From NCBI GenBank assembly GCA_015680685.1, contig MNCI01000721.1:619872-683871 (forward strand): a stretch of DNA of 64,000 nucleotides. The letters are read 5' to 3'. Positions 1-64,000 of the stretch are shown piece after piece. Origin of the DNA: Gnetum montanum (lineage: Eukaryota > Plantae > Gnetophyta). The number at the start of each line of letters is the position of its first letter. Position 1 is the first letter of the stretch. A program made the translations under genes and the position numbers. A model generated the notes under the pieces. That model ran no database searches, was not told where the DNA came from, and saw only the letters and a list, made by a program, of their open reading frames with translations.

Positions 1-561
1 CAAGTATGGTCCATAACATAGCCTAACATCTAAACATGTTGGTTTGGCAATTAAATGTGTGTTGACTATGCATACACATCTTCCTGATGGATGGACTTTT
101 AGAATAACGTCCAAGGCTATGTGATTTTTCTGAAATCTTGACTGTTCTTTCTTTTCCATCTCTTGAAGTTCTAGAATTTCAAAAATCATATTTCTTAAAC
201 TCCATTCAAATCTTTGTACTAATTCAAACTTGCTTTCTTTATAAAAGATCGCAAAACCATCCATATTGTGATTTTTGCAATAAGATAATCTATATGGCTC
301 AAAAGAAGAACTTCCACAAGAACCTTTCCACTTATAAATACCTTTGTATCCCATCTTTTCTAAGTTTGGTTGGAATTGGTAAAGAAACTCCCATGGTAAA
401 ACTTCTTGTAGGCATAAAACATCAACATCCAAATCTTGTAATTCTGCTAAGATGTGTGGGTATCGATATTTGTGCTAATCTAAGGCCCATGATGAACATA
501 ACGGATGTTGTTTCCCACTTGCTAAAGATCTTACAAGCACATTGTATGTTGTAATTTTCAT
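1..561 (-). pseudogene. CCR4/nocturnin-family (EEP) deadenylase-like pseudogene, intronless, runs off the window start
   Basis: Manual - strand translation: MKITTYNVL..CSSWALD*(TAG where W is expected), a frameshift, then YRYPHILAELQDLDVDVLCLQEV..MGYKGIYK..DGFAIFYKESKFELV..HIAL..VCIVNTHLIAKPTCLDVRL. TYNVL, CLQEV, DGxAIFYK and NTHL are CCR4-family motifs. The frame is open from about 460 to base 1, so it is absent from the ORF track. Confidence 0.8.
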
Positions 562-1302
562 TCTTATTCTTGGATTCTCTTCTAAATCATTTCTCTTCAT
601 GAGTATCATACTCTTTGTTGAAATGAGATTTTGAGTCTCCATGTTATTTTGCCATATGTTTTCATAGCAAGACGGATTAATATACCCTTTCTTGATAGTT
701 GAAGATCATTTTGTTTCCTCAACTAATTATCCAACTAATACATCAATTAATCATTAACGAATACATCGACTGATAATCAACTACATCAACTAAATAACTA
801 CATAATCTAATTTTAGTAATATATAATTACATGGACTAATTTTTAGTAATATTTAACTATATTATCTAATTATTAATGACCTTTCTACCCCCCCTTAAGA
901 ACACTAACTCCTGCAGTGTAACTAATGACTGCCATAGTGATCTTAAGGTCCCAAAAAGGTTAAATTCATTAGGCATAATTTTTGATATCAACAAATTATC
1001 GAGTACTTGGATGAAAAATCTAACATCACTATTGAGTTAAAAACGGAAAAAAATGTTGGAGATGAGTATTCATATGTTGAGAATGGATATCCTATGCTCA
1101 AATTATGCTAAATTTATGTTTTTTGAAGGTCTTCAAGTACTATATAGGGCAAGGAGTAAAAAACTAACTTTTGGGATTTCCTAGGATAGATCTGACTTCA
1201 CCAAAATGTCCAAAATATTGAAAGCTATAGGAAACAACTCTTCATTTGTTAAAAAAGGCTTTCAAAATCACAAGTTATGGCTTCTTGAGTCTAGAATGTC
1301 TT

Positions 1303-3049: not shown

Positions 3050-3163
3050 AGGTTAGCATATGGTACATTGAAATTTTGTAGATTACTTGGATAGTGAATT
3101 TCAACAAAACAAGATCAATTCATCTCATAGTTACTAACTTTCTTAAAAGAAATTTAACAATGA
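3050..3163 (+). repeat. 114-bp direct repeat, left flank of the viral integrant (copy 2 at 8436-8549)
   Basis: aggttagcatatggtacattgaaattttgtag...aatttaacaatga against aggctaacatatggtac...aatttaataatga; 4 mismatches counted, no indels. Confidence 0.95.
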
Positions 3164-3533
3164 GTGAGGTTGAAGCTTCGTAAGTGAAGTAGACCCTTTG
3201 TTGCTCAAGCTACATGGCTTAGTTTGATAGAGTTTTTGAACAACGTGATTTTTTAGCTCCACATCTCTAGATGTGCTACGCGGCACCTCTCATGAGAGAG
3301 TTCGAGTTCTGAATTTCTGCGATCGTGTTGTTATTTCTATTATTTTTATCACCATCACCTATGGCATCTCCTCCTCCACCTCCAAATACACCTGATATCA
3401 CCTCATCATCTCGCTATGCTCCATCACCTACCCATACTTTTCCATCTCCAGAAACCTATCATGCCTACATCAATGGCACCATCTTTGATTATTTGATAAA
3501 TTGTAACCGTGAGAAACCTACCGAGTGGGTTCC
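3161..3533 (+). repeat. 373-bp inverted copy of the viral leader 7622-7994
   Basis: Reverse complement of 7622-7994 without indels, roughly 90% identical and mostly transitions. ORFs 3325..3555(+) and 7549..7830(-) share MASPPPP...EWVP. Confidence 0.95.
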
Positions 3534-4010
3534 TTTTGCTGAATGTTATCCATGATGGATGTTAAGCTGGGATTAACTTCTGTTTTGAATGAATTCACTT
3601 TTCTTATTTGTTCAAACAGTGGCTTACTCAATTCTATAGGAATTTTGGGTACTGTAATCTTCTTTCCTTCAGCTGTGATGACCAAAAATTCTTTACTAAT
3701 GGTGTAAGGAGTGACTGAATCAAGAAAGTTAGCTCCTACGCCAACATCATAGCCACTATCATTAATTTGCACAAAGTTGGTTTCTCCAACCAAACTTGTT
3801 TCTAACATTAGTGGAACATCTAAAGCAAACTTTGACAGATATCTCATTCCATTCATAGTATTAATTTTAAATGGCTTTTATGAATCTACCCAATTTTCTA
3901 ATACATTTTGATGTGCAAAATTTAAGGTAGCACCAGTATCAATAAAAGCATTAAAATTTTTCCAACCTTTCCATCTACTGCAATTCTAATGGGTATGATA
4001 ATAACACATA
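3534..4010 (-). pseudogene. Caulimovirid aspartic protease domain, truncated before RT
   Basis: NFNAFIDTGATLNFAH...KPFKINTMNG...GYDVGVGANFL. It has the DTG catalytic motif and a C-terminal ILGxNF-like motif, with one internal stop. Confidence 0.85.
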
Positions 4011-4173
4011 TCGTTGAAACTGTCTTCTTAATCTAATGAAGAATGGATTTTCAAACTTCTAGCTTGCTATCACATGGAGGCTTGTTTAAATCTAACAATG
4101 GCTTGAAAGTCTTGGACTTCTTGTGATCACAAGGAGTAATTAAGAATTTAGTTGGCACTTTAGACTGAATTGC

Positions 4174-5520
4174 CTATTCTCCTTCTATTTCTTCTTTAGA
4201 AAAGTCTTCTTTAGATAATAATGACAGATTCTCTTTACATTGTTTTGAATCTAATGTGTCTTCATTATTAGCTACTTCGCCACTAGTTTCTCCTTCTAAT
4301 ATTTGAGCAAATGGGTTGATTACGCTTTCGGTTGTTGATGTTGTTGAATAAAGCACTTGACTAGAGTTGCTAAATGGTTTTGAAATCTTGTCTTCATTTT
4401 CAAGTAAGATTTCTATCTCTGTGCTATCCCAATCTTCTTCTTCTTCTAACTTATTTTTCATCATTTTAATTTTAGGAACTATTCCTTCATTGGACTCTGT
4501 TGAATCTTCTAAGTCTTCTGAATCTTTCAAATATTTGATCTTGAAAATCTTTTCACCTGATTCTAAGGCTTGCAATAGATCTTCTTTTGTATCTATTAGC
4601 TCCCATTCATTTCCATATTCAGCATAAAAAGCTTTAACTTTGCCTAGAGTTTTCTTCTTGGGGCATTCATATGCATAATGACCTTTTTCTTTGCAGGTGA
4701 AACAACATACATTACTTTTGTTTTTGGACTTTTTTCTCTTGATAAACCGATGTCTTTGAAATCTTTGAGGTCTGGAATGTGTTGGGAATCTTCTGAACTT
4801 TCTTTTAGTCATTCTTTTCTTCTTTAAGGTCTTTGGCCTATAATCTACTCCATCTATATTGTTATATATGGCAACACTTGGAATGATCTTCTACAAACTA
4901 ATATTGTAGCAAGCTTTTTGCAACTCTTGTCGAACTAGATGAATGACATCTATGAAATATTGAAATGAGATGTTGATGTTTTTAGCTAAAGCATTATGCA
5001 TAACCAACTGACCTAATTTATTTGGCAAAGAACCCAAATAAAGATGATTTGTTAATGGATCTCTATCTAAAGCAAGGTAATAAACTTCTCTAGCATATTC
5101 TGTGCTGTATTCTTTAAAATCTTCTAGTCAGTGAAGCTTTTTCTGGCTCAGCATCATTTTGTCACTCATTGTTAAATAATCTATAATCTCAATAGAGAAT
5201 TCTGTAGCTAATGTTGTGTAAAGACATTCATATCCACTTTTAATTACCTGAGTTTTTGCTTCTTCTGTAGAATTATCCCACCAATATCTTTTCTTTCTTT
5301 CTATTCACTTCATTCCAACTCTAATGGCTATTTCTTCTTCTATTTGTGCTGCACTAGCTACAATCATCAGATGCTCAACCCAATTTTTTAGTGTATGCAC
5401 GATTTCTCTTGGTGGAGTGTAATCAATATTGATAAGTGGTAAGGCACTTGGATTTAATTCTTGATAAGCCATAAATCTTGGAGGTATCCTTTGCAGTTTT
5501 AAAGGATATGCCATCATTAT
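4174..5520 (-). pseudogene. Caulimovirid capsid protein region with basic tract, zinc knuckle and acidic C-terminus
   Basis: KRKKSKNKSNVCCFTCKEKGHYAYECPKKK followed by an E/D-rich tract (ORF 4174..4812). The upstream helical CP-like segment is in the same frame with stops. Confidence 0.85.
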
Positions 5521-6299
5521 TCTTCCCTGGCAACCTTGATCTTCCTTAGAACTCTTATCCGACTTAGGCTATTTTAACTTTTTCTCTTTCTTTAATCTCT
5601 TCAACTTTTCTTTCAGTTCGGGTTTCAATGTTCCCTTATGTTCTTCTTGACTAATGCCTTTTTTTAATTTTTCTTCAAGCACTCTTACTTCTTGTAAAAA
5701 CTGCTTTTTCTTTTCTTTTTGTTGCTTACGTTTTTCTTTTACTATTCTTTCATATTGTCCCATATGATCCCATATATCTTGCAATCTTTCTTCCAATTGA
5801 TTCATATTGAAACTACAATAACTTGTCGAGTGCAATAGATAATTTAACTATCGTATTTCTTCTTTTTGATTTTGACTATTTTCTATAGCATGTTCTAACA
5901 AGTAACTACAATCTGCTCTTGTTTTTGGTACCTTATCTTCAGAAACTATTGTATGATAGGAAGCTTTAGAAGGTCATTTTCCTCCTTGCTGAATTCTGTT
6001 TCCTTTAATTTCTTTTATATTTTGCAACATAACTAATGAACCTTTGCAATCTATATTACTTCCTTTACTGCTGCCTTTACTACTACTCCCTTCATCAAAC
6101 TTGACTAACAACAATACTAGAGGTAGCGAAGCTAATTCAATTACTGTTGATCTACCAAATTGTTGTATGGGATATTTATTAAATCTCTTTTATTTTTTTT
6201 GGATTTTTGACAAACTCTTGATCTTTCAAATACTTTTGAACTCTAGGAAACCCTTGTACATAACCTTCATCTTTGATAGATCTTTCACATTCTAACAAA

Positions 6300-6900
6300 T
6301 GTTTACTTCCTACTGGAAACTTAACTTCCCATTTAAGCTTATGATTCATAAAAACTGTATTAGATAACTAAAAAGTACTTTTAGCTCCTATTGCAGCATG
6401 CACACTTTCTGGTAACAATCTTACTCGATGTATTTCAATACACAAAAGTAAAGTTGATGTAATATGTTCATCATTTAAAGACAATTGGAAATTTGGTTGG
6501 ATTGAACAAATAGCATCACCATTTAAAACACCTTTAAATTGACAAATCTTGGACATATCCCAAACTGTTTCTGGATCATCTTCTAAACCATTTCCAATGA
6601 TTCTACTATCCAACAATGTAACTAAAAATTCTACATTTAAATCATAATTGAATTTGGGAATTACAATTATGTCGATTTTTCTAAGATGCACATAGTTATG
6701 CCCTTTTGATTTCCATTTGACTATTTCTTATTATGTGAAAAATGGCAAAAAGACTGGTTTGATTCCATCACCTTTGATGTCAAGAATGGCTTTTTCTTGT
6801 TTGACTGAAGTTGTCAATCGATGATTGAACACAGAGGTAAAATTATAGATAGCCTTTTTTGTGATTTCTGGAAACTCAATCTTGCCATCTTGTTGTACAA
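6300..6900 (-). pseudogene. 30K-superfamily movement protein
   Basis: GHNYVHLRKIDIIVIPKF..VTLLDSR (D motif)..CSIQPNFQLSLNDEHI..LLLCIEI matches the caulimovirid MP pattern. ORFs 7349..7630, 7106..7297, 6731..7048 and 6368..6691 share one frame. Confidence 0.85.
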
Positions 6901-7601
6901 AATATTTTCTACTCAACAAAGATTCATGAAAAGGAATCACCACCTTTTCATCTTCTGTTAACTCAATTTCTTCAATATTCTGAGTTGTAGATCTCATCAT
7001 GAAAGCATGATGTGTTTCCCAATCTACATCTGCAAACTTGTCATACACTTCATTAGATCTTTCACCATGTTCTCATCTATGCCATGCTTGTAATTCTTCT
7101 TGACTCTACTGATTTGCTAATTCTTCATCATATATTTTTGGAGCTTTTTCTTTATAAACTTCTATCTCACCTTCATCCCATTTTGTGATTACTTCATCAT
7201 CTTCTACTTGATATGGACTTGGATCTTCATATTCCATAGAACTAGGAATCCATTGTCTTGCATCTTTGACTTTTCCATTATTTTCTTTAATAGACATATA
7301 TAATTGGTTTGCTAAAGTAGGTTCACCATCTACTCTTGTTGGAGCACTTCAAGGCCTGACTATCACAAACTCATCTAAAGATGGAGATGAATCAACTTCA
7401 TTCTTTATTGGATCTAATTGATCTAAAACTAGGCTTGAACTATACATTAAACTCATCAGATGATAATATTTGCTTGTAACTTCAATTCTATCATCAACGC
7501 TTTTTGCTGCGATCTTGGGAAGCTCATGGGCAAACTCAAGGTGTGGAGTTAGTGGAGGTGCGGGACGAATATGAGCTTGATGAACAATAGCTTTGGACAA
7601 A

Positions 7602-7613
7602 GCTCTGATACCA
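7602..7613 (-). promoter_or_regulatory. tRNA-iMet primer binding site of the pararetrovirus
   Basis: Exact TGGTATCAGAGC on the - strand. Confidence 0.92.
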
Positions 7614-8082
7614 TTTGGGGTGGAACCCACTCAGCAGGGTTCTCAAGGTTACAATTCATCAAATAATCAAAGATGACACCATTGATGCAAGCATGATAGA
7701 TTTTTGGAGATGGAAAAGTATGGGTAGGTGATGGAGCAGAGCGAGATGATGAGGCGATATCAAGTGTATTCAAAGGTGGAGGAGGAGATGCCATAGGTGA
7801 TGGTGATAACAATAATAGAAATAACAACATGATTGCAGAAATTTAGAACTCAAACTCTCTCATGAGAGGTGTCACGTAGCACATCTAGAGATGTGGAGCT
7901 GAAAACTCACGCTATTCAAAAACTCTATCGAACTAAGCCACGTAGCTTGAGCAACAAAGGGTCTACTTCACTTAAGAAGCTTCAACCTCACTCACTGAGA
8001 TTGAAAAACACATTGTGTACAAAACACACTGCAGATTATATTCCTTCAAACTGTGGTGATTTTTAGAATGGTATTAAGGGAT

Positions 8083-8180
8083 ATTTATAGAGGACACATG
8101 GGAGGAGCCCGACCTTGGATAAGCTCAAGCTGCATTATTGATAGCTTACATCACACGCTAAGCATACATCACACGCTTAC
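8083..8180 (-). promoter_or_regulatory. Putative pregenomic-RNA promoter: TATA box plus paired as-1-like motifs
   Basis: CCTCTATAAAT (TATA at 8083-8089). About 60-85 nt upstream lies AGCGTGTGATGTATGCTTAGCGTGTGATGTAAGC, with two TGATGT that could be deaminated TGACGT. Confidence 0.6.
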
Positions 8181-8435
8181 TTTCACACAATAATACACCA
8201 CACTTATTGACACCTATAGTGACATACATGAAAAAAAAGTCAAAGAGCTTTTAGAATAGCTCGATGGACACCATACATCTTGGTCCTAGACCTTTGACAA
8301 TCAACAAAATTTCTGACAAGGTGTGCCATCTCTTCAAGTAGACTTGGTGGTGAATTTGGATCTTCTTACGCATCTTTGAGAAGTGGATGTCGTTCAACCT
8401 TTACTTCATTGTGATAAACATTGAATTCTCAATAG

Positions 8436-8549
8436 AGGCTAACATATGGTACATTGAAATTTTGTAGATTACTTGGATAGTGAATTTCAACAAAACAAGA
8501 TCAATTCATCTCATAGTTACTAACTTTCTTAAAATAAATTTAATAATGA
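8436..8549 (+). repeat. 114-bp direct repeat, right flank of the viral integrant
   Basis: Matches 3050-3163 at offset 5386. Confidence 0.95.
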
Positions 8550-8892
8550 ACCTAATCAATTAATAATTATAGTATTAAGATGAGTAAGAGTTACCTAGCC
8601 TAGTGTATCATCATCTTACCAACATCTCTTGTAATTGATGAATCTTGATGAGGTGTGATTAGATCTTCATCAGCTAATGATATTCATGAAAGAATTTTAT
8701 TGGTTGTTGGAATCTAGATGCCTGATCCATTGTTCATGAAATCAATGGAAAGGTATCTTCAAACTTATATCACAAACATATGATGCATCTAGTGATGATC
8801 AATGGCTTTCCTTGTATTATGGCTTCAAGGTTCATCATCAAGTTCATGTTGTAGTCAGCCTGTGGTTCTAAATGGCCCTTGGGTTATGGTTT

Positions 8893-9481
8893 GCTCTGAT
8901 ACTAATTATGACATCTCATCCTTGGATGTCATGGAAAATGTGAAATATAAGATATATTAGACATTATGCATACAAAGAAAATATGCCAAATGCAAACTAT
9001 ATGTGATATTTGACATTATGTATAAAGAGAATAATAGAAAAAATGTAGAAAGAGAAAGAACAGAATGCTTTATTAATATGGAATAGCATATCCAGATCAT
9101 GCTCTAAGAGTGTTCCTTCAAATTTGCTTCCTTTGCCATCTATCCATTAGAGGCAATCTAACATGACCACCACCATTAGGCCTATAACCCAACCAAAAGG
9201 GATGGCTAGTTGACTTCTTATCCTACTTCACCTAGCTCTCATGACTTGCCTATATTGGCTCCGCCACTCCATATTGGCATGACCTCTAAGCACAGGTATA
9301 AATGTCTCAGGTAAAACCCCCAAATGTTATCTCAAGAGTGACATCCATTGTTACAATACACTCTTTAGGGTCTCAATTACAACTACCCTTTTGGGTCTTG
9401 TTACAATAACAATAACACTTGTTATGAAGAGACATCATCTTTGTTTATGTAGTAGCATCATTTGGGAATGGGGACATGACA
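8893..9481 (-). mobile_element. LTR (8907-9481) plus tRNA-Met PBS (8893-8904) of a decayed LTR retrotransposon, family X
   Basis: On the - strand TGTCATGTCCCCATTCCC...GATGAGATGTCATA followed by TAGTATCAGAGC. Homologous to 9887-10380 and 48476-48962. Confidence 0.7.
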
Positions 9482-9872
9482 CTAGTAGTCTATTTAGGTG
9501 AATTTTTTAGAAGCTAAACTTACAAGGAGGAAGAGGCATATGCTATGAAAAGAGTACAACCAAATATATCAAACAACTATATGATAGTTTGTTTAGGTGT
9601 AAGATAGTACTTGATAAAAAGGATGCTACTGAGAAAGAATGAGAAGCCTAGTCAAGGACAATTTCATATCTTCTCAGCATCATCTTCAAGCCAAATGGCT
9701 TATCATTGTTCTACTTCCTTTTGTTTCTCTATTCTACTTCTTCTCTATTCTGCTTCTTTTCTATTCCATTTCCTTTTTCACTACATGTATTCCACTTTGA
9801 TGTACTTCTTCTTTATAATAATAATAATAATAAATAGTATTTTCTTCCACTTTAGCTCTTGAATCATGATTT

Positions 9873-10380
9873 GCTCTGATACCAAATGTGACATCCCATT
9901 CCTAGATGTCATTAAAACATGATCGTTCGTTGCTTAATTCATCACAATTGTGAGCATTATAATGGAAATACCATGAAATAACTTGATAAATGAACAACTT
10001 GGTAAATTACCGATGCACTAAATTTAACATGAAAGAAAAATAGAAGAAAACTTTTACTAATGAGAGTGGTACACTGTAATGCCCTTTGGGTTATCTTGCC
10101 ATGCCACTTAACACCCTAGAGGCAACCCAACACTACCATCATGGTCAGGCTATCCAACCAAAGGGGTGATCAGTCCCTTCTTGTCCCACTTCACTTGGCT
10201 TTCATCACTTGCCAATTCAGGCTCCACAACTCCATGTCAGCACAACCCCTAAACCAAACCTTAAATGGCATAGGTCAAGCCCATTCCTGAGGGGTACATG
10301 AATAATTGTAACTCCTCATAATGAGGCACCCCTTCATTTGAAGGTTAATTACATCATTACATGAAATACAATATAATATT
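9873..10380 (-). mobile_element. Second family-X LTR (5'-truncated; right boundary approximate) plus exact tRNA-Met PBS (9873-9884)
   Basis: ...GGAATGGGATGTCACA-TT-TGGTATCAGAGC on the - strand. The internal block TAGAGGCAAC..CCAACCAAA.GGG..CTTCAC is shared with 9147-9290. Confidence 0.7.
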
Positions 10381-18745: not shown

Positions 18746-19672
18746 GTTGGACATGGCTCACATACAGCATTGATTGCTGTAGGTAGGTTTGTGCATAATA
18801 TGAACTACAAAAGTTTGGCAGCAGGAGATGGCAAAGGAGGAGCTCCATTTGTGAGACTTGTAGTGTACAAGGCCTATTGGAATATGCAGGGAGGTTGTTG
18901 GGATGCAGATATCCTTGCTGCTTTTGATAGTGTAATCAGGCATGGCGTCGACATTTTGTCTGTGTTAATCATTACTCAACCAGGCTCCACCAACTTTCAG
19001 GATTCCATCTCCATGGGTTCATTTCATGCTATCAGACATGGGATTACAGTTGTTTGTGCAGGTGGAAATGAAGGTTTCAAGGGTAGTGGATCTATGACAA
19101 ATACTGCACCCTGGATCATCACTGTTGCAGCCAACTCCATAGACAGGGATTTTAATAATAATCTTCAGTTTGTCAGAAACCAGACCCATATCCAAAGTCT
19201 AAGTCTGAGTATGGATAGACTCAATCATTTAGCAACAACTATAAGAGCATATGATGCTGCTGCCAAGGGTGCAGATCCTATATGGGTAGACCAATGCTAC
19301 CTGGGGAGTTTGGATGCTGCTAAAGTTGCAGGAAAGGTGGTACTCTGTAACCAAGATGGAAACCCATTCACATGACCAATAGATCAAAGCAAATGTGTTA
19401 AACAGGCTGGCGGTGCAGGAGCCATCATCTTCGATCAGTTGAATCCCATTGTTGAATAGGCTTATGCATTTGAAGTACCCACTGCATACATGGGAAACAT
19501 TGATGAGATGAAAGTTCTCCCTGTTTTCAATTCAACGAAGACACCGAGGGCCTTTATCTCACAAGCAAAAGCAACGTTTACAAGAGAGAGTTCTCTCATT
19601 ATCGCAAGATTTTGCTCCAAGGGTTCAAACACGATGACACCAGATATCATCAAGCCTGATATTGCAGCCCTG
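18746..19672 (+). pseudogene. SBT: Subtilisin-like serine protease (S8) fragment, intronless, from the catalytic His motif through the PA domain to KPDI
   Basis: VGHGSHTALIA..GGAP..YKAYW..DADILAAFD..GVDILSV..ISMGSFHAIRHGITVVCAGGNEG..NTAPWIITVAANSIDRDF..GKVVLC..KQAGGAG..FCSKG..IIKPDIAA, with two in-frame stops. The Asp and Ser catalytic motifs are missing. Confidence 0.92.
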
Positions 19673-25449: not shown

Positions 25450-28400
25450 GGTTTGGTTTATTGCACATTGACCAACAGTTTCTTGTCCAAGCTCTCAGGT
25501 TTGTATATTGTCATGGCCCCTAAAGGAAAAGTTGCATAAATAATATAAGGTCCTTCCCATAGTGTTTGAAATTTAGTACATTGTGGCACATGTCTGGGAT
25601 TCCAGTAGAGAGCCTTACCTCCTGGTTGATATTTAACTTTTCTAATCCTTAGGTCATGATGTTGTTTATTGAATGTCTTGTGCAATTTGTTAGATGACAG
25701 GGCAGCTAGTCAGTTTTCATCTAGCAAGTTAAGGGTTACTAACCGTTGTTTCTGTGCTAGATCAAGGTCAAGGTTGAGGTCACATGCTGTGGATAGTGTA
25801 CGAAGCTCAGTTTGAATGGGAAGTGTTGGTAATTTACCGTGCACTAACTCATAGGGAGAGTAGCCTGTAGGGAGTTTCCATGTGGAGTGGAATGCCCAAA
25901 GATCATCATTTAGTTTAGTGCTCCAGTCTCACCTAAACTTGCTAATAGTTCTTGTCCATATTTTCGTAATCTCCCTATTAGCGACTTTAGCTTGATCGTT
26001 CACTTGGAGGTGGTATGGTGTTGTCAATTTGTGTTCAATCCCTAAGCGTTGCATTAACTTTTGAAAAGTTACACCTATGAAGTGGGTACCATTGTCTGAA
26101 ATAAGTGCACGAGGCACACCAAATCTATTTATGATTTGTTTTTGAAAAAATTGTACAACTGTAGATGATGTACAATCCTTAACAGTAGCTACTCCTACCC
26201 ATTTCATTAGGTAATCAATAGCAACAATAATATAATCTTTTCCATTGGACATTGGTGTAATTGGCCCCATAAAATCAACTCCCCAAATGTCGAAGGGTTC
26301 TAATGATTGGATCCATTGTTGTGGACCCTCCATTCTAGCAGTCATTCCCCCATCACATTGACAATGCCCACAAGATTGGACAAATTGATGGGTGTCTCGA
26401 AAAAATGTAGGCCAATAATATCCTACAAGCAATATCTTGATGGTCGTTCGTCTCCCAGCGTAATGACCCCCACAAGGACCCTCATGAGCATCTTAGAGAA
26501 CTCGCAGTTGATCTATACTGAAAACACACCATTGAACCATGTCATCAGGACACACTTTGTAAAGTCTCCCATTGATTTCCATAAAGTACTTGGCTAGGTG
26601 AAGAAACTGTTCTTTCTTCTTAAGGTTTAACTCTTGTGGTATTTGTTGGCTGAGGAGATAGGTAAGAATGCTACTGTACCAATTTTTCTCTGTGGGTGAT
26701 TGATTATTCACTACACCAACAAAGAGGAATTCATCTAGGAAATAATCAAAAATTGGATACTCATCCTCTTTGTTATTCCATCGCAACCAAGATAAATGAT
26801 CAACAACTACATTCTCGATGCCTTTACGATCGATCATCGTAAGATCAAACTCTTGTAAGGTCACAAGCCATCGTATGATACAAGAGCTTGCCATTGGCTT
26901 ATTCATGAGGAACCTTATTGCACTATGATCTTTATGTATATATACTTTATATCCTAATACATAGTGTCTAAACTTTTCTAGTGCAAACACTACAGCCATT
27001 ACTTCCTTCTCTGTGGTAGTGTAGTTAAGTTGCACACAAACGATACTTCTACTTGCATAGTGGATGTAGTAAGGATGCTTCTGGTCATCTAACTATGTAA
27101 GTATGGCTCCTAAGGAATAGTTAGATGCATCAATCATAATATGAAATGGTTTGGACCAGTTACCAGCTTGTAGAATGGATGCTTCTACTAGCTTCTATTT
27201 CAAGGTTTGGAAAGCTAGTTTGCATTCCCTGGTCCATTCGAAAGGTACGTCCTTTTTTGTTAATTCTACCAATGGTTTGGAAACCTTTGAAAAGTTCTCA
27301 ATAAATCTCCTATAGTAGCCAGTGTGTCCAAGGAATGATCGAATATCTTTGATAGTTTCTAGTTGATGGGTAATTCCTTGGATAACTTTGATTTTCTCAG
27401 GGTCTACCTCCATCCCTGTGTGTGAGATTTTGTGCCCTAGTACTATGTCCTTTTGGACCATCAAATGGCTTTTCTAGCAGTTAAGCATCAAATTGGTTTC
27501 TACACATATTTGTAACACTTGATCTAACTGATCCAAGGCTTGATCAAAGTTTTCTCCATAAGTGAAGAAGTCATTCATAAAGACCTCCACATTGTTTCCT
27601 ATCTGCTGTTGGAATATGCTTAGAACTAGTCATTGAAATGTTGCAGGGGCATTGCACAAGCCAAACAACATCTATTTGTATGCAAACATTCCCCAAGAAC
27701 TAGTGAACGTAGTCTTGGCTTGGTCTTCTGGGGCTATTGTTATTGAGTTATATTCACTATATCCATCCAGAAAACTGTAATAGCGATACCCTACAATGGT
27801 ATCTAAGACTTGGTCAACAAATGGCAATGGAAAGTGATCTTTGAATGTTGCCATATTCAATAGCCTAAAATCTATGCACACCCTCCATTTGCCTCCATTT
27901 TTAGGCATAATAACTAAGGGGCTAGTCCATTTGCTATCAAAAATGGGGTATATGAACCCAGCCTTGAGAAGTCGTTTGATTTCTTCCTTGACTACTTACT
28001 TCAGCTTTGGGTTCAAATGCCTCTGCGATTATCTTCGAGGTTTCATGGAGGGGTCGATGTAAATCCTATGTTGGCATATCCTAGGATCTATTCCAGCTAA
28101 TTCAGGATATAACCAAGTGAAGGCTTTCAACCATCTATTTATCACTTTCAACAGTCTCTCTTTTTGTTGCAGATCAAGCTTAGCGTTAATAATTACTGGC
28201 TTTCCATTTTTAAGGAACGTGTATTCCATATCGGTGGGCAATGGTTTCAGCTCGAAGGGCTCCTGCTTAAATTTCTTAGGGATTTCCAACTTCCCCTAGT
28301 TGATATTTTTGAGGTTAAGGTTTGGAAGTTGGTAGTGGACTTGCTCTAATGCATCTATGCTATCGATGTAAGTGCAAGTCAATCCCTCAGTTGGTTCCAT

Positions 28401-29000
28401 GCATGTGATTGAACTGCTTTCTTGATTAGGTATCAGCCACTGGGTGCCTTCCTATCATGTGGCTGCTACATATAGGTATCTTTTTATGTTGATCACTTGT
28501 GCACACTGATTTCATGCAAGCAATGTCAAACTTTACACAACCCATGACCTCTGTACACAATTACACCCTGTGTCACTATATGCGATGCATGGAACTTTCT
28601 TCTTCCTGATATTTTCGAATGTGTTTTCCTTTGATATTTCTAGGGAAATATTGTGGATTCCTAGGCACGCATCAACTGTGCTTAGCCATGCTCTTTCCAT
28701 TATGATTAGGAAGTCCCCCTTGCCATTGTTCACCTGAATCACTAGGAAATCAAGTGGGTACAACCATCCACAAACAATGGTAAAAATGTCCTGAACTAGT
28801 TCTAAAAGGATAGTGATGGATTGGTCAACAAACTCTAGATGAATATTGCTCTTTTTAAATGGAGGAAGGTTCGAGGCCTTGTACATTTCTTGAGAAATCA
28901 AGTTACCACTAGAATCTAAATCTAAAAGAGCCTTGCACAGTACATTTCTAGTGATTTGTAAGTATATTAGAGGACTTCTAGGATCAGAGAATTTCCTAGG
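25450..29000 (-). pseudogene. pol: pol: protease (ALLDLDSSGN), RT, RNase H (YTTTEKEVMAVVFALEKFRHY), integrase (WGVDFMGP, ISDNGTHF, WEGPY)
   Basis: ORF fragments 28533..29186, 28029..28289, 27672..27908, 27195..27464, 26493..27035, 25929..26432 and 25458..25685, interrupted by stops. Confidence 0.93.
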
Positions 29001-31595
29001 AAGATGGCCAGCTTTGATCCAATTGGTGATGGCATTTGTTAGCATCACCATATGTGTTGAGTGCAGTGGTTGAGTTGAATGAGGCTTCAAAGTTTTAATT
29101 GATATCGAGGTGTCTAAGGAATTAGCCGCTTGTGATTGCAAGGGCTTGGTTGGACTATTGGTTCTAAATAAAGGTCTTTTCTTCATGTGGTTGTTGGAAC
29201 CAACAATAGGTTGAGAGTTAATAGCCCTTGTAGCGTTACGTTGCTACGATTGGGTAGGGATTTCACCCTACATAGATGGAGTAGGTGGTAATGGGGCTAT
29301 TGGTGGAAGAGATGTAGCTGGATGAGAAGGATGGTACATTTGTGAAACATCGCCCCTAGGAGAAGGAGTGCTATAATACTCATGAGCTTGGTAGTGAGGT
29401 TGAGGGGTAACGTGACTAGTAGAGTCATGTAGAGAGACTGGCTACTGCATGTTATATCCATATAGGTCAGTTTGCCAGTAAGGATACTATTGCCTTGGTG
29501 GTGGCATTTCCCATGATTGTGGGTATTGCCACTATTGATATTACTTAATCAGTTGTCATGGAGTTCCACTGGGATAATATGTTAAGGGTTGGTGGAACTG
29601 TCTTGGGTTAACTTAAGGATAAGGTAACCTTCAGGGTGTTTGCCGTTTGTTCAATCGTGGGCTGAGTGCATACATCCCAGACTCCTACAAATGTGAGATT
29701 ACAGGGCAACATCCCTTAGGATGGTCATATTGACATATCTCGCATCCACTATCATTATCTGTTTCTGACTCCACAACCTCTTCAATGATGGTAACTTTGC
29801 CCTTACCCTTGCTATGTGCATGTTTAGCTTCTCTTTTTTTTTTTTTTTTGCAATCACTACCTTGCTCTCTAGACTCCTCTACTATTTTAAGAACAGAATG
29901 AAATCTATTGTCTAGGGAATCCCACATTTGATCTACCTTTGTCGATACTTCTGATGTCAACTTTTGGATAGGCAAAGTTTTCCTATTCACCATCTCTTCG
30001 AGTGGTGACTCTTCTTCATCCTCACAAAATCTTACTCCTCTCTTCCAGAGGGAAGGATCTTGGTTATACTCTTCTACACTTTCTCTCTTTCGTAGCCCAC
30101 CTTCTTCCTTAGCAACTTGCTCCAATAGTCTTTAGATTTGATAGGACCTAAGCTCAAATAGTCTTCCTTGGGCATAAGTCCCAAGGGTTCTTCTAGTTTC
30201 ATGCCTAACCCCATCTACGAGATGGCATAGTTGATTCCTTTGTGAATAAACATGGCTAGGGCAACGATGTAACAGTGCATAGTATCATCCCATGACAGCA
30301 TCTAAGGATTCATGTCCTTCTTGTTTCCATCCTTGGATTTTCTTTCATAAGTTAGACACTCGAGAGTACATTTGGTACTTGTCATTCAACAGTTATAACA
30401 TGGTACTCCACCTACAAATAGATTTTGGTTCTAAGGACTAGTACCAGCTTTTCACTTCTTTAACTAGTGTTCATGGGAACAACTTAAGTTTTTTCCATTC
30501 ATTCTCTATGTTTTGTACAACACATGCATCATGGAATGCTTGTAATTGATTCTAAGGATCAGTGTTGTATCCCCCTTCAAATCATGGGATATTGTTCATA
30601 TCTAATCTCTTGATTCTACTATCTTTATGGTGCCTTATTGGAATTCTAACAGCCTCAGTTATGTCTAACATACTTCGAGTAATGAGTAAGTGTTCATCGT
30701 GATCATCTCGTCCATGGTGTCTATGATGCCTACGTTGTTCCCTACTCTCCCTTCTTCTATGTTGTGATTCTCCAGAGTGCCCTCATCTCCTTTCCTGGTT
30801 GTTTCGTCTATGACCTCCACTTTGTCTACCTCCATCCCCATGGTCTTTTTCTTTATGACTACGTCCAGATACTGAAGGAGAGGATGAAGGAGAGGGTGAA
30901 GGAGATGATGAAGGTGAAGAAGAAAGGGAACCATCACCATGATAGTATCTACTACCTTCTCTTTGGCGATCACAGCCTCGATCATGATTGCGATCAGAAT
31001 GTCCACCTTTATCATGTGTCTGTGTCCCTTTTTTGGACCCTTTGTGCCCATGGGTATCGAAACCTAGGTTATGAATAGTGGAATGAACATTCTAATACAC
31101 AACCCCTTGGCCAAAGTCAAGGGGAGAAACATCATTGTGTGGGCGACTACCTAAGGTAGGTTCACCACCCTCATTTTTGCTTAAGACATGTGGGACATCC
31201 TATGACCACTTACCCTTCAAAGACTTATGATGTCTCTCTTGTTGCAAGTCCCTTTGATGTTATGCCTCTGTCAGATGGTATTCTCTCAAGTCATGGTCTT
31301 GCACAACATATTCTGCGTGTAAGTGTGACATGCCAATTCGTGTGAGAGCATGAAGAAGCATGCTTAGGACTGAACGATCGGGAGGTAACACTATGTTACC
31401 TTCTAAGTCTCGCCAATGCAATTATTCATCTTGATAGAGGATAAAGGTGAAGTCTAGTATATACTCATCAGGATGAATATATACCACTCGAACTTGTTGA
31501 GGGGCTGGTGGATCAACGTCATGTGCATTACACCATCGATTATTTCATGTTTCAGACCTATGTGGTGAGGCGCTTTCGTACAAAGAAGGAGACAT
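29000..31595 (-). pseudogene. gag: gag with a long N-terminal extension
   Basis: ATG at 31595, MSPSLYES..VYIHPDEYILDFTFILYQDE*LHWRDLEGNIVLPPDRS. Capsid-like segment at about 30150-30650 and CEICQYDHPKGCCP. Homologous to ORF 63052-64000. Confidence 0.8.
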
Positions 31596-40076: not shown

Positions 40077-42861
40077 ATGGCCCCTAAAAGAGGACCAGCA
40101 ACAAGGACCTTCTCAAGGTGCAACTAAATGTCTAAGAGGAGGCAGAGGCCAGGAACCTCTAGTAGAACATGCAAAGAAGGAGGCCCACTCACTCAACATT
40201 GACTAAGACACCACTACGACAATGCAATCTAGCCATGCATAAGATGCCAAAGTTAGAGCTCCAAAACCAAGGCAATGTATTATGTTGTCCCCTGAATGTC
40301 TCCAAGCCATTCAGGAGAAGCCCACCTTTGTAGCTATGATAGTGGAGCTCAATTTTGGGCCTTTCACTGAGTTCCCCCCTAAAGCAGTGAAGACTTAATT
40401 GAAGGCATCTTCACTATGGCCCATTCTATTAAAGAGTGATGATTGGTATTGGAGTGAAACTTATCAATTCTAGCATGGCAAGGAGGAAGGTACCATTGCC
40501 AATTTAGTTGGTGTCTCCGTTGATTTTTTTGTAAAGGCCATTGCAAAGGTCCTACATCTTCCAAACGAGGGACCAAAATTTGCTCATTTGTCCACTCACG
40601 CAGACTAGACACAAGGAAATTATGGTTGAAACGAACCTACGACAAGAAAAATACAGTTTACGGAGAATTGACCCTAGAAGAAAGAATCTAATTTAAGATC
40701 GAAACTTATTACCTTTTCCCCACCAAAGGTTTAAATAGATTATTTACTTATGTGGCATAAGGTAGTGTGATTTTGATGGGAAAATTTAATGCAAATCTAC
40801 CTCATCTATATTTGATGGAGATATTAAGGCTATTTGAAGAAAGGAAGACACAAAAGCTTGCTTTACCTTTCCCTTGTCTTATCAAGAAGTTGTGCAAAAG
40901 TGTGGGATCTTGGGCTACACAAATGATGTTCATAGAAAAGCCCAAAACGCTTCATATGTTGAACTACTCAAACTTTCAACACCTAGAAAAGCCTCTGATG
41001 AGCAGTTAGAACAAGAAGAAGACCAAATAATTAGGCCCACTATGCCTCAAATAGTATGACCCAGCCAACAATAGGAAGCAGGGCCCAACACATAGCCCAT
41101 AAGCTAGCAAGTCCAACAATCGCCACTACCATAACAAGACTATCAACTATCTATCAATCATCTCTAAACAATCACCAAGACGATCAGTTGGAAAATATGT
41201 GATTCCAAAAACTTATTTTGGGTCATTTATGACATCGTACGACCTACTATTTTGACTAATCCTATAAGTGAACATATTTCATTGATTTCAAGAGGAAAGT
41301 CCCAATGGTCTCAACAAATCTCTAGGAATGTCACATCTTTCCAAGTCAGCTTGGAAACTGGTGAAGGAGCCACGGTGGTGGTCATGCAGCATGAGAATGA
41401 GGCAAGTGCAGTAGAGGTGGTCACAAACCACATCAAAGAGTCATTTAATGTTTTTGTTATGCCACTGGTAGATTTCACAAGAGCATGTGATGCTCAAGCT
41501 TTGGCCAGTCCCTCAATGACTCCTGTGAAACATGAGGATGCTTTGGATCGCTTGCAGCAAATAGGACAAGTTATCACATCCTTATTTGACATCCCCCAAG
41601 ATGTCACTCCAGCACAATCAGACCTCATCACTGCCAAAGGAAAATTGGTCATGGCTAAGGTTAGGGCCGAGCACATAGAAGGAGAGTTGCAAAGATTGCT
41701 AGAAAAGCTCATTGTCTTACAAGCTGAATGACAGGATCCTTTTCAATTTATCACAACTAACTAATTAGACATTTTCAAAACCAAGAAATTGAATAAATTA
41801 TTGGAAGAAAATAAAAGGATGACAATGGAAAAAGAGAAGGATGATTAAGATGCTTCAAAAGCACAAGCTCAGACATATGCACATGTTAAAATTCTCAAGG
41901 CCTTATAAGAGGAAAATAAATTACTTATTGTTGAAAATCTTTTGTTGACCACAATTAAGAAATAGAAGAACATTCTTGAAGAAAGTTTCCAACAAATGTG
42001 AGAACAACTAGTTCAGATCAACCAAGACATGAATCGCTTGGCCAGGGAGAATAGAACCCTCTTCATGGAGGAAGTCCATGCCATCCGACAAAAGATGGCC
42101 ATAGAAATAAGTACGTGGAAAAATAAGGCCAAGAAGCATGAGAAGTTAAAAGAACACTTCTATGGCCGAGTGGGAATGTATAAGGAAATCATCAAAAAGG
42201 AGATCTATATGGCTAAGGCCCACATTAATTCTTTCAGTGCTCAACACACTGACTAGTGAGCCATACTAGATACTTATGCCTTCATCCACCAAGCAAAATT
42301 GAAAAGCTAGGAACTGCAGATCCAAGATCACAAAATACATGGAGTTGGCAAATCTGCGATACACCAACTTGGCCATGTTGACAACAGGATGCCTGACAAC
42401 TAAGCTTGAGAAGCAAGTAGCTACCACCTATCCTAAATATGAAACAGAGTTTGCAGAACATAAGAAGACATTGCAAAAATTAGAAGTAGCAAACTCTGAA
42501 TTAGAGGTGGTAAAGGCTAGCTACCAAGGTCAAAAAGACATAGCAACGAATTTGGCTCGATAACTTATGGATTATTAGGAACTTAAAGATAAAGCTAGAG
42601 CCTATGAGAAGGAATGATGGATGTTTGCGGGATGGTATGTCAAAGCCAATCAAATGTTCCCATAACTGCCATGTCTGTGGAAAGTGCCAACTCCACCAAA
42701 CATTGGAACATCAACATGGATGGCACATGATCCTCGAACAAAGGAGGAAAAACTTCAAGAACTTCTTCAAAGGCATCCATTTTAGAAGCTTGGAGCAGAA
42801 GACAAAGGAAAGGTTCCCATGGAGGAGCCACCACTACCAGGAACCACATGAGTTCCACTAG
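40077..42861 (+). pseudogene. Athila env-like / extra 3' ORF: N-terminal LPFPxLI domain plus long coiled coil, decayed
   Basis: Starts ATGGCCCCTAAAAGA; KAIAKVLHLPNEG; LMGKFNANLPHLYLMEI..LALPFPCLIKKLCKSVG. Coiled-coil fragments at 41252..41731, 42029..42256 and 42339..42563. Confidence 0.7.
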
Positions 42862-48475: not shown

Positions 48476-48962
48476 TGTAATGTTCCATTCCTAATTATGG
48501 AGTGAAGTCATATTATGATATATAAATTATGAAATTAACCTTTGTATGAAGAAATATCTTATTATGAGAAGTTGTAATCATTCATGGTATCCTTTGGGGC
48601 TTTGATGTATGCATTTAAGATTGGAAACTTAGAGGTCATACTAGCATGAAGTTGGAGAGTTAACAATGATAAGTGATAAAAGCCAAGTAAAGCAGGATAA
48701 GAAGGGACTAATCATCCCTTTTTTCTTAATGCCTAACTATGGTAGTAGTGCTAGATTACCTCTAAGGATTCTTGATGGCATAAGAAGACAACTCCAAGGC
48801 CCCTACTTCAATATTTTGTACCTACCACATTCATCATAAATATAGAATACTTTTTCTTCTTCTATTACATTAGAGTAATTTTTATTCCATTTTAAGCATA
48901 TTATTCCAATTATGACTGTATAATCATCACTAATCCTTAACATCTAGGAATGGGATGTCACA
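48476..48962 (+). mobile_element. Solo LTR of family X with TSD ATAAT
   Basis: TGTAATGTTCCATTCC...CTAGGAATGGGATGTCACA, with ATAAT at 48471-48475 and 48963-48967. Confidence 0.85.
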
Positions 48963-62090: not shown

Positions 62091-64000
62091 TGATGAGACG
62101 CGATATGCACTGAGCCGCGATATCGCGTCGTCCTCTGCGATATCGCGTATGCGATATCGTGGTCCGCTGCCATATCTATAAATAAGAGGCGGCACTCCCT
62201 TCATTTCCAAATCCTGGCTAGAAGTAGCAAAGCTCTGGCAGTTTGAACACTCCAGAGTTAGATTAATTCCCATGTGCCCGCAGTAGGAGTCCTAGAGTGA
62301 ACGGCTCTTTATTCGAGCAACTTTGTAACCTGAACACAAGTTGTGTACGGCAATAAAGATGAACTTGATTGGATAAACCTTGCAGTACATGGTTTTATTT
62401 TATTGTTATTTATTGCTTTCCTAGTGCGNNNNNNNNNNNNNNNNNNNNNNNNNNNNNNNNNNNNNNNNNAGGTAACCCAGTAGCGTATTCCAGGATCTGC
62501 GCTTGGTAATCCCAGNNNNNNNNNNNNNNNNNNNNNNNNNNNNNNNNNNNNNNNNNNNNNNNNNNNNNNNNNNNNNNNNNNNNNNNNNNNNNNNNNNNNN
62601 NNNNNNNNNNNNNNNNNNNNNNNNNNNNNNNNNNNNNNNNNNNNNNNNNNNNNNNNNNNNNNNNNNNNNNNNNNNNNNNNNNNNNNNNNNNNNNNNNNNN
62701 NNNNNNNNNNNNNNNNNNNNNNNNNNNNNNNNNNNNNNNNNNNNNNNNNNNNNNNNNNNNNNNNNNNNNNNNNNNNNNNNNNNNNNNNNNNNNNNNNNNN
62801 NNNNNNNNNNNNNNNNNNNNNNNNNNNNNNNNNNNNNNNNNNNNNNNNNNNNNNNNNNNNNNNNNNNNNNNNNNNNNNNNNNNNNNNNNNNNNNNNNNNN
62901 NNNNNNNNNNNNNNNNNNNNNNNNNNNNNNNNNNNNNNNNNNNNNNNNNNNNNNNNNNNNNNNNNNNNNNNNNNNNNNNNNNNNNNNNNNNNNNNNNNNN
63001 NNNNNNNNNNNNNNNNNNNNNNNNNNNNNNNNNNNNNAGCACACCATTAGGATGGCTTCTTCTCATGAAATCAACTCACCTAAGGACAACACAAGAGACG
63101 GTCAGCATCATACGCATAACTCAAATCAGCCATGTCCTAAACAATCTAAGGTCACATATACTCATCCTGATGAGTATGTCTCAGACTTTACTTTTATTCT
63201 CCATCAGGATGAACAACTGCGATGGAGGGATCTGCAAGGTAACATTGTGTTACCCCCAGATAGATCTACCCCTAACATGCTTTTCTGTGCCTTAGCACAG
63301 ATTGGCATGCAAGAACTGTTTGCGGAATACGTTCTGGATGATTATGACATGAGGGATTATCATCCCACAAATGCCCAACGTATTCGGGATGCAAGGCAGG
63401 AGAGCCAACATTCATTATTGAAGAGCAAGGTCCCCCATGTCATTAGTGAAATAGGAGACGAGGAACCCCTCACGATGGGTTTCTTAGAAAATGATGTTCC
63501 TCCTCCTCACTCTGGTGAAGAGGTAAAGCATCAGGGCCTTCGATCAACTGTACATGCTATAGGCTCTGATCACCGTGAGCACCAGCTGTTCACGGTAGGA
63601 ACAACTACTCAGACTAAGGATGGACACTTAGATCGTTACAACGATCGGGGCCGAAGCAGCCGAAGAGAAGGTAAGCAACATCGCCACGATGATGAATCTC
63701 CTTCTTCTTCTCCTTCATCTCACCATTCACACTCTCCTTCCACATCTAGGCGCAACCATCGTGGGCATAATAGAGAGAGTAAAAGTAAAAGGGAAGATGA
63801 AAAACCTCGACAAGAAGGTCGAGAGGAGTTACGACAAGAAGGTCGAGAGTTGTTAGGACAAGGGCAAGGATGTAGGGAAAGTAGGAAACCGCCACGAAGA
63901 CATCACAGACGTCATGAAAGAGATGATCATGACGAGCCCCTACTCGCAACCCGAGGCATGTTAGACATTAGAGAGGCAGTTAGGATCCCCACAAGGCACT
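62091..64000 (+). mobile_element. Young Athila-lineage element: 5' LTR (partly in N gaps) and gag start
   Basis: Starts TGATGAGACGCGATATG with an intact CGCGATATCGCG array and TATAAATA at about 62178. 62255-62385 aligns with the reverse complement of 23130-23265. Confidence 0.85.
63052..64000 (+). CDS. gag: Gag N-terminus, 316 uninterrupted codons, open at the window end
   Basis: MASSHEINSP..TYTHPDEYVSDFTFILHQDEQLRWRDLQGNIVLPPDRSTPNML..(R/H/S/E-rich)..GMLDIREAVRIPTRH. There is no stop, so it is absent from the ORF track. Confidence 0.85.
   Translation, partial: MASSHEINSPKDNTRDGQHHTHNSNQPCPKQSKVTYTHPDEYVSDFTFILHQDEQLRWRDLQGNIVLPPDRSTPNMLFCALAQIGMQELFAEYVLDDYDMRDYHPTNAQRIRDARQESQHSLLKSKVPHVISEIGDEEPLTMGFLENDVPPPHSGEEVKHQGLRSTVHAIGSDHREHQLFTVGTTTQTKDGHLDRYNDRGRSSRREGKQHRHDDESPSSSPSSHHSHSPSTSRRNHRGHNRESKSKREDEKPRQEGREELRQEGRELLGQGQGCRESRKPPRRHHRRHERDDHDEPLLATRGMLDIREAVRIPTRH

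What the first reader, a model, noticed from the sequence alone, without database searches (positions are those of the whole stretch)
3534..8435. Endogenous caulimovirid with a single MP-CP-AP polyprotein and a long unrecognised N-terminal region: possibly an undescribed lineage
Seen: one decayed reading frame from about 7630 to 6200, a frameshift in an A-run near 6195, then coiled coil, CP and zinc knuckle, then protease. About 300 codons of Pro/Ser- then acidic-rich sequence precede the MP core. Upstream of the intergenic region lies the tail of another ORF (..EMAHLVRNFVDCQRSRTKMYGVHRAILKAL*, about 8245-8430) that is not RNase H-like. Known: single-polyprotein layouts occur in petuviruses, vacciniviruses and florendoviruses, and florendoviruses also have a downstream ORF2. 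Inference: I cannot match the N-terminal extension or the terminal ORF to a described genus.
Basis: partly seen in the sequence, partly recalled or inferred. Interest (0 to 1): 0.8.

Follow-up and report, generated by a model that had tools for sequence, protein, structure and literature searches.

The report
Fossil plant virus with extended polyprotein
This is a broken 5-kb piece of a plant pararetrovirus stuck in a host repeat, likely from the known seed-plant branch of Welwitschia virus 2, whose single long gene carries about 260 or more extra codons in front of the movement protein and runs through the site that likely primes its replication, a layout I found described nowhere.

Summary
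Window 3534-8435 (minus strand) is a decayed caulimovirid fragment: movement protein (MP), coiled coil, capsid with zinc knuckle, protease; no RT. It has two sure frame breaks and a likely third, not one. Relatives read through the MP-capsid junction, so it is one polyprotein. The N-terminal extension is real coding sequence: an unbroken public protein matches it far above shuffles and is fused to MP. The tRNA-Met primer site lies inside that frame. The 'terminal ORF' is not distinguishable from chance. The element is no orphan: MP, a pre-capsid coiled-coil block, capsid and protease all point to Welwitschia mirabilis virus 2 and Nymphaea elements, i.e. published subclade B.1 (likely OTU 1 or a sister group). 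WMV2's annotated protein starts at MP and leaves 1.3 kb non-coding where this element is coding. The fragment sits in a high-copy repeat between 114-bp direct repeats, with an inverted leader copy ending near the primer site. Diverged sister copies, not this copy, appear in RNA at low level. New genome map for a known branch; genus rank untestable without RT. The scan's notes showed no earlier caulimovirid finding.

The parts
3050..3163 (.). Left copy of a 114-bp host direct repeat flanking the insert
   Evidence: 4 mismatches in 114 to 8436-8549; part of a very high-copy repeat
3158..3533 (+). Inverted second copy of viral leader and upstream frame (7622-7997), ending 9 nt from the primer site
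   Evidence: 33 mismatches in 376, 27 transitions, no gaps; junction also in a contig of run X7 and spanned by near-identical contigs in X1, X2, X6
3534..3961 (-). Aspartic protease (active-site DTG at 3940), cut off before RT
   Evidence: PF02160 E 9e-11; 33% to WMV2, E 4e-15
3962..4644 (-). Acidic spacer between zinc knuckle and protease, about 120 codons longer than in WMV2; frame break near its end
   Evidence: knuckle-to-DTG 255 codons against 136 in WMV2
4645..5517 (-). Capsid protein with basic region and zinc knuckle (4704-4663)
   Evidence: score 311 to WMV2 against 102 and 115 to two outgroup-type proteins, shuffles about 42; PF00098, PF24925 weak
5680..5967 (-). Pre-capsid coiled-coil block shared with WMV2 and Nymphaea elements; possibly the virion-associated protein (inferred)
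   Evidence: scores 153-155, 0 of 300 shuffles, for 4 of 7 proteins tested; 34-38 (chance) for the other 3
6182..6913 (-). 30K movement protein; frame break in the A-run near 6187
   Evidence: PF01107 E 3e-8; 42% to WMV2 over 238, 73% to P0005 over 146
6914..7630 (-). N-terminal extension in frame with MP, helical/Pro-Ser then acidic, with a conserved DWETH..M motif at its border with MP (about 7020-7000)
   Evidence: score 235 against P0008, shuffles 41.6 +/- 7.0, 0 of 500; 3 stops, 0 of 2000 simulations
7602..7613 (-). tRNA-Met primer-binding site, read in frame inside the extension
   Evidence: sequence; the aligned residues of P0008 fit the same motif; 0.004 expected by chance
7614..7794 (-). 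Open frame from an ATG at 7794, likely the true start, separated from the main frame by a break near 7616
   Evidence: open in both copies and weakly like the start of P0008 (17-18 of 2000 shuffles); not significant alone (449 of 2000); sister contigs differ in length at 7616
7795..8239 (-). Short intergenic region and leader; TATA-like box at 8090-8082; three short upstream ORFs; no unusually stable fold
   Evidence: folding z -0.71 and 0.09
8240..8435 (-). Viral end of the insert; possible tail of the preceding coding region, coding status not shown
   Evidence: low-copy depth like the rest of the insert and on the same contigs as the leader; no better than chance as an ORF
8436..8549 (.). 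Right copy of the 114-bp host direct repeat
   Evidence: uninterrupted form 3162-8550 in contigs of 3 of 4 runs

Best explanation
This is a dead, partial copy of a caulimovirid, likely of subclade B.1 (the branch of Welwitschia mirabilis virus 2 and OTU 1), in which one reading frame runs from an N-terminal extension through the tRNA primer site into MP, capsid and protease, and which was likely captured as filler DNA during repair of a break in a host repeat. Shown: domain order, one frame in relatives, the extension's coding nature, the primer site within it, the flanking 114-bp duplication and the inverted leader copy. Inferred: the pregenomic RNA starts about 30 nt after the TATA-like box at 8090; ribosomes cross a short, weakly folded leader and start near 7794; the viral protease would release the extension (about 230-290 residues) from MP at the conserved DWETH..M border, so that it acts as a separate accessory protein in the place where other genera have small upstream ORFs; it likely arose when an upstream ORF and leader fused to the polyprotein frame. 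The inverted piece likely reflects a second strand break at the primer-site gap of the viral DNA. After integration the copy decayed, mostly by transitions at methylated sites (inferred from CpG loss).
For: Pfam domains. Best named hit of 23 in 1.84 billion representatives is WMV2 polyprotein DBA06665.1, followed by Nymphaea thermarum proteins. WMV2 aligns colinearly over MP, capsid and protease. Pre-capsid block shared only with WMV2 and three Nymphaea proteins, 4 of 7 tested. MP tree: 100/100 branch separates the window, WMV2, Nymphaea and five unnamed or Taxus rows from the Aquilegia, Ginkgo and P0020 rows; grouping with the Aquilegia protein rejected, p-AU 0.00013. PMC13308828 places WMV1/2 and OTU 1 in B.1, and OTU 1 is the only clade B group among 135 N. 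thermarum RTs. P0008 and P0007 are unbroken from extension into MP; P0005 and P0009 continue across the 6187 break. Sister contigs differ in length from the window at 6187 and 7616, and 3 of 18 stop codons fall on the 67 difference places shown. Breakpoints near the primer site are the common pattern in florendovirus inserts (77%, PMC13658181 passages). CpG observed/expected 0.24.
Against: No RT in the fragment, and B.1 and its OTUs are defined by RT-RH. Within the 13-row MP group the tree is unresolved, and that group also holds P0013, which lacks the pre-capsid block. No Pinus nigra virus, WMV1, petuvirus, gymnendovirus or Wollendovirus sequence was in hand. The assignment of the Nymphaea proteins to OTU 1 is by elimination. 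The extension has only one full-length and one partial independent relative, both from unnamed assemblies, which may be from the same host group. Its function is untested: single-sequence fold pLDDT 39, atlas hits at most 0.83. Cleavage at the border motif is my inference from motif position and rests on no call. The start at 7794 is weakly supported. The host was not identified.
Confidence: 0.7

Rival explanations
1. It is a genus-level group of its own inside B.1, not OTU 1: a lineage marked by the fused extension and the in-frame primer site.
For: Window, P0005 and P0007 form their own MP group (88/89). MP identity to Nymphaea elements (38-41%) is no higher than to WMV2 (42-45%), and Nymphaea-WMV2, which are different OTUs, share 38-45% over MP. 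The extension does not match the Nymphaea pre-MP regions (181 and 89 of 500 shuffles).
Against: OTU 1 is a broad cluster spanning Cycas, Gnetum, Araucariaceae and Nymphaea, with OTU 30 nested in it, and all 47,135 RTs of that survey were assigned to existing OTUs; if the host is one of the surveyed gymnosperms the RT of this family is probably already counted.
Confidence: 0.3
2. The extension is a common but unannotated feature of B.1: WMV2 has it too, hidden in its 1.3-kb 'intergenic' region.
For: Distance from the last upstream stop to the MP core is 1570 nt in WMV2 (from its published length and ORF) and 1548 nt here. Two Nymphaea gene models carry 250-270 residues before MP.
Against: WMV1 and WMV2 were both annotated with MP near the protein start (bioRxiv 10.1101/2022.02.23.481439); in the Pinus taeda Gymnendovirus 2 sequence the primer site is followed by stops in all three frames within about 20 codons (read by eye). 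The window's upstream stop belongs to an unproven ORF. Nymphaea models may be spliced.
Confidence: 0.2
3. The extension is a separate upstream ORF, or MP and capsid are separate ORFs, and the joins are accidents of decay.
For: Three stops lie in the extension and a frame change follows MP in this copy.
Against: P0008 and P0007 run unbroken into MP; P0005, P0009 and WMV2 run across the MP-capsid junction; sister contigs differ in length at the junction.
Confidence: 0.05
4. The 8243-8435 tail is the end of a florendovirus- or Wollendovirus-type ORF2.
For: It lies where the last ORF would end; WolV1 and florendoviruses have an ORF2 of unknown function; RNA reads of a sister show a net length difference of 6 letters there.
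Against: Not better than chance as an ORF; no homolog; WMV2 has one ORF with about 550 residues after RNase H, which would also give a tail unlike RNase H.
Confidence: 0.2

Closest known systems
Welwitschia mirabilis virus 2 (DBA06665.1, BK061148; subclade B.1)
   Same: One MP-coiled coil-CP-AP frame; 42% MP, 26% capsid region, 33% protease; shared pre-capsid block.
   Different: Annotated protein starts 14 residues before the MP match, no extension; knuckle-to-protease spacer 136 against 255 codons; about 1.3 kb non-coding against 445 nt here if the 7794 start is right.
OTU 1 of Vassilieff et al. 2026 (PMC13308828), represented here by Nymphaea thermarum proteins (assignment inferred)
   Same: MP 38-41%, shared pre-capsid block, continuous MP-coiled coil frame.
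   Different: Pre-MP regions do not match. The parts of the paper I read define OTU 1 by RT only and give no genome map.
Wollendovirus 1 (clade C, PMC13308828)
   Same: Gymnosperm element, one large polyprotein, 12 shared primer-site letters; primer site called 'unique in its genomic position'.
   Different: Has a 568-residue ORF2; sequence and figure not available to me, so not compared.
Soymoviruses (SbCMV, PCSV, WCSV-1; PMC6482551 passages)
   Same: Primer site inside a reading frame.
   Different: There it lies in small separate accessory ORFs of a many-ORF genome, not in a polyprotein N-terminus.
Florendovirus
   Same: MP-CP-AP-RT-RH polyprotein in ORF1.
   Different: Angiosperm hosts, ORF2; the Aquilegia protein used as stand-in (identity as florendovirus inferred) lacks the pre-capsid block and is rejected as sister.

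Membership tests
Caulimoviridae | 30K movement protein | tested here: met
   PF01107 E 3e-8, 33.9 bits over cut-off 23
Caulimoviridae | Capsid protein with CX2CX4HX4C zinc knuckle | tested here: met
   Motif at 4704-4663; capsid region matches WMV2, E 7e-50; PF00098 just under its cut-off
Caulimoviridae | A3 aspartic protease | tested here: met
   PF02160 E 9e-11
Caulimoviridae | RT and RNase H after the protease | tested here: inconclusive
   Fragment ends at 3534; the only RT match in the window (26790-28223, 25%) sits beside an integrase and belongs to a retrotransposon
Caulimoviridae | tRNA-Met primer site; no integrase | tested here: met
   Primer site 7613-7602; no integrase family in the four frames scanned, fragment only
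Caulimoviridae | Circular gapped dsDNA episome | not testable with these tools
   Only an integrated copy and short reads were seen
Subclade B.1 | Placement on the RT-RH tree | not testable with these tools
   No RT; proxies (MP, pre-capsid block, capsid, protease) all point to WMV2 and Nymphaea
OTU 1 / WMV2 OTU | RT identity of 62-65% or more to OTU members | not testable with these tools
   No RT of this family could be fetched
WMV2-type genome map | Polyprotein begins at MP, long intergenic region | tested here: not met
   289 residues or more precede a landmark that is residue 62 in WMV2
Florendovirus | Clade with florendovirus proteins | tested here: not met
   AU test p 0.00013 against grouping with the Aquilegia stand-in; pre-capsid block absent there; one stand-in only, identity inferred
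Florendovirus | Separate ORF2 after the polyprotein | tested here: inconclusive
   Tail not shown to be coding
Petuvirus / Vaccinivirus | RT placement and close protein identity to PVCV or BFDaV | not tested
   No such sequence among the named hits (20 of 23 looked up); no direct comparison made
Wollendovirus (clade C) | RT in OTU 19; two ORFs | not testable with these tools
   Sequence not held; text only

The most novel reading that the evidence does not exclude
An unnamed genus-level caulimovirid lineage of gymnosperms whose replication primer site is embedded in the polyprotein frame, which has turned its leader into a 300-residue accessory protein and dropped the ribosome-shunt hairpin, and of which a transcribed, possibly still replicating member exists in the host today.
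Probability: 0.2. Interest if true: 0.65.

Novelty: new variant of a known kind. Interest (0 to 1): 0.4.

Why it matters
Subclade B.1 is argued to go back to the ancestor of seed plants but, in the texts I read, is known mostly from RT sequences and two single-ORF genomes. This locus gives part of a genome map that differs from them: a conserved coding extension across the primer site. It shows a route by which accessory proteins could enter pararetrovirus polyproteins, predicts a checkable gap in the WMV2 annotation, and the low-level RNA from a diverged sister points to where a living gymnosperm caulimovirid might be sought. It does not change the family tree unless RT says so.

Tried and rejected
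No whole genome is held for the window, so sister copies could not be collected. Word-based homolog searches found nothing for the MP frame among longer proteins (0 of 4108 candidates) or for the capsid region (0 of 1445); they also missed WMV2, so the blanks are weak. Locus scans were blank in viral contigs and metagenomes; two alignments were too loose to scan with. Atlas look-alikes of the relative's extension scored at most 0.83, leads only. Its single-sequence fold was unusable (pLDDT 39.3), so no fold search was run. A PDB sequence search with WMV2 showed only RT-type entries among the best 60 of 217. Circular permutation (extension homologous to WMV2's C-terminal tail) rejected: 459 of 500 shuffles score as well. 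A shunt-type hairpin in the leader was not found (z -0.71, 0.09), though the copy is decayed. Host identification by a neighbouring subtilase fragment failed: best identities 50-54%, long branch. The codon-position split of shown sister differences was uninformative (25 third, 24 first, 15 second). No RNA holder was listed. Gong and Han 2018 was not held. The divergence of the inverted copy (33 of 376) and of the flank repeats (4 of 114) did not differ significantly (p 0.07), so one integration event is not rejected.
Full report
Anatomy. The insert spans 3164-8435 between two copies of a 114-bp host repeat (3050-3163 and 8436-8549, 4 mismatches). Summed contig depth is 2,785-62,147 in the flank bins and 1.5-909 in the bins inside the insert in four DNA runs, and contigs joining 3162 to 8550 occur in 3 of 4 runs: the virus interrupts a very high-copy repeat. 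Because the repeat is so common, the joint shows the uninterrupted form, not an empty allele. On the minus strand the viral part reads: 196 nt of possible coding tail, a TATA-like box at 8090, a leader, the tRNA-Met primer site at 7613-7602, then one long decayed coding region to 3534. A 376-bp inverted copy of 7622-7997 follows (33 mismatches, 27 transitions).

Domains. Read frame by frame with X at stops, the region gives MP (PF01107, E 3e-8), a zinc knuckle (PF00098, E 0.001, under cut-off) and Peptidase_A3 (E 9e-11). There are 18 stops in the four frames read and two clear frame changes, near 6187 and near 3960-3990. No caulimovirid RT is in the window: the only RT match lies at 26790-28223 at 25% identity, next to an integrase.

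One polyprotein. A HMMER search of 1.84 billion representatives with the MP frame gave 23 hits. P0005 (73% over 146 residues) continues from MP into the next frame of the window, and so do a Nymphaea protein and the WMV2 polyprotein. Contigs of sister copies differ in length from the window at 6187 in run X7 (2 contigs), while a contig of the same locus in X1 carries no gap there (5752-6305). The break is therefore specific to this copy.

The extension. From the primer site to the MP core there are 307 codons. The frame has 3 stops over 7630-6852, fewer than any of 2000 simulated sequences. P0008, an unbroken 370-residue protein from an unnamed assembly, aligns with it colinearly (score 235; shuffles 41.6 +/- 7.0; 0 of 500) and runs on into MP; P0007 covers the border at 60%. 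P0008's residues at the matching place fit the primer-site motif and about 30 residues precede them, so the primer site is likely coding there too; its DNA was not seen. In the window an open frame from an ATG at 7794 reaches the primer site in another frame. It is open in both copies, weakly like the start of P0008 (18 and 17 of 2000 shuffles, on a chosen 36-residue piece), not significant alone (449 of 2000), and sister contigs differ in length at 7616 in X2, X6 and X7. I take this as a likely third break. Nothing names the extension's function. A DWETH motif followed by methionines marks its border with MP in 3 of 3 sequences; Met-Met motifs also stand before the capsid here and in WMV2. 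That these are protease sites is my inference and comes from no call.

Relatives. Of the 23 hits, 20 were looked up: the best named is Welwitschia mirabilis virus 2 (DBA06665.1), then six Nymphaea thermarum proteins, one each from Taxus, Ginkgo and Aquilegia; 10 have no name. WMV2 matches MP (42%), the coiled coil and capsid (26%, E 7e-50) and protease (33%) in order. A pre-capsid block scores 153-155 against WMV2 and three Nymphaea proteins and at chance against P0013, Ginkgo and Aquilegia. An MP tree of 16 rows (8 short or redundant hits left out) has a 100/100 branch between Aquilegia, Ginkgo and P0020 and the other 13; inside, the window groups with P0005 and P0007 (88/89) and deeper order is open. 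Vassilieff et al. 2026 (PMC13308828; text parts 1-4 of 10, passages, tables S2, S5, S9 read; figures not seen) place WMV1, WMV2 and OTU 1 in subclade B.1; OTU 1 holds RTs from Cycas (285), two Gnetum species (213, 465), Wollemia (204), Araucaria (79), Amborella (1) and Nymphaea (39, 23), and is the only clade B group in N. thermarum. So the element most likely belongs to B.1. Against a simple OTU 1 filing: its MP is no closer to Nymphaea (38-41%) than to WMV2, and the pre-MP regions do not match.

Difference from WMV2. Debat and Bejerman (bioRxiv 10.1101/2022.02.23.481439, parts 1-2 of 3 read) give WMV2 as 7,648 nt with one 2,111-residue ORF, MP at the start and RNase H ending at 1,559. That leaves 1,312 nt non-coding. 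The distance from the last stop to the MP core is 1,570 nt there and 1,548 nt here: the same span is coding in the window's lineage. Either the extension arose from leader sequence in this lineage, or it is unannotated in WMV2. In the Pinus taeda Gymnendovirus 2 sequence of Diop et al. (PMC5766536; passages and supplement passages) the primer site is followed by stops in all three frames (by eye). A primer site inside an ORF is known in soymoviruses, in small separate ORFs (PMC6482551 passages). Six literature searches showed no description of a primer site inside a polyprotein N-terminus or of an OTU 1 genome map; Gong and Han 2018 was not held, the WolV1 figure and any sequence files of PMC13308828 were not seen, and these could bear on the claim. 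Pooggin and Ryabova (PMC5902531, passages) describe the shunt hairpin as general; this leader folds no better than shuffles, but it is decayed and has three short upstream ORFs.

The tail. If coding, the simplest reading is the end of a WMV2-like post-RNase H tail of the same polyprotein; an ORF2 cannot be excluded.

Integration and age. The inverted piece ends 9 nt from the primer site, where caulimovirid DNA has a strand gap; 77% of complete almond florendovirus inserts break near that site (PMC13658181, passages), and filler-DNA repair is the usual model (PMC10377300, passages). The inversion junction is spanned by near-identical contigs in runs labelled organisms A and B and seen in one contig of organism C, so the insertion likely predates their split if the labels are distinct species. 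CpG observed/expected is 0.24.

Expression. Three RNA runs of organism B laid 160, 78 and 90 reads from about 12.6-12.9 million records each; 154, 73 and 83 were under 90% alike and only 1, 4 and 1 were 95% or more; 28, 12 and 24 of 30 bins had depth. This copy appears silent; a diverged sister is present at low level. DNA carry-over and read-through from other loci are not excluded, and no RNA start or end was found.

Host. An earlier unchecked note calls the genome a gymnosperm. My own test was inconclusive. The virus's relatives fit a gymnosperm.

Verdict. A real endogenous caulimovirid fragment, likely subclade B.1, with a genome layout not found in my searches. New variant of a known kind; interest 0.4.

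Noticed in passing
window 8875-8937 and 9855-9917: Two LTR-end-like motifs followed by tRNA-Met primer sites, 980 nt apart (78% over 63 nt), with related sequence at 48525-48799: likely a tandem of short non-autonomous LTR elements that hosts the viral insert.
   Followed up: partly
window 1-705, minus strand: Intron-free fragment with an Exo_endo_phos match (E 8e-6), CCR4-like by recall; likely a pseudogene.
   Followed up: partly
window 18746-19375, plus strand: Subtilase fragment (PF00082), at most 54% identical to 120 listed relatives and on a long branch.
   Followed up: partly
window 25929-30131, minus strand: Decayed Ty3-type retrotransposon with RT, RNase H and integrase.
   Followed up: partly
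window about 6471-6508, run X11: About 25 RNA reads of a sister copy carry a T-run loose end inside the MP gene: sense-strand premature polyadenylation or internal priming.
   Followed up: no
P0013 (unnamed assembly, contig 6010 nt): An unbroken 1,768-residue caulimovirid polyprotein with no name, ending right after RNase H and lacking the pre-capsid block.
   Followed up: partly
P0009 and P0176 (Nymphaea thermarum): Two gene models share a 250-270 residue region before MP that matches neither this extension nor WMV2's tail; a second, different pre-MP extension is possible.
   Followed up: partly
window 41168-41731, plus strand: 187-codon open frame with no Pfam match.
   Followed up: no
window about 62450-63050: Assembly gaps (632 N in the window).
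   Followed up: no
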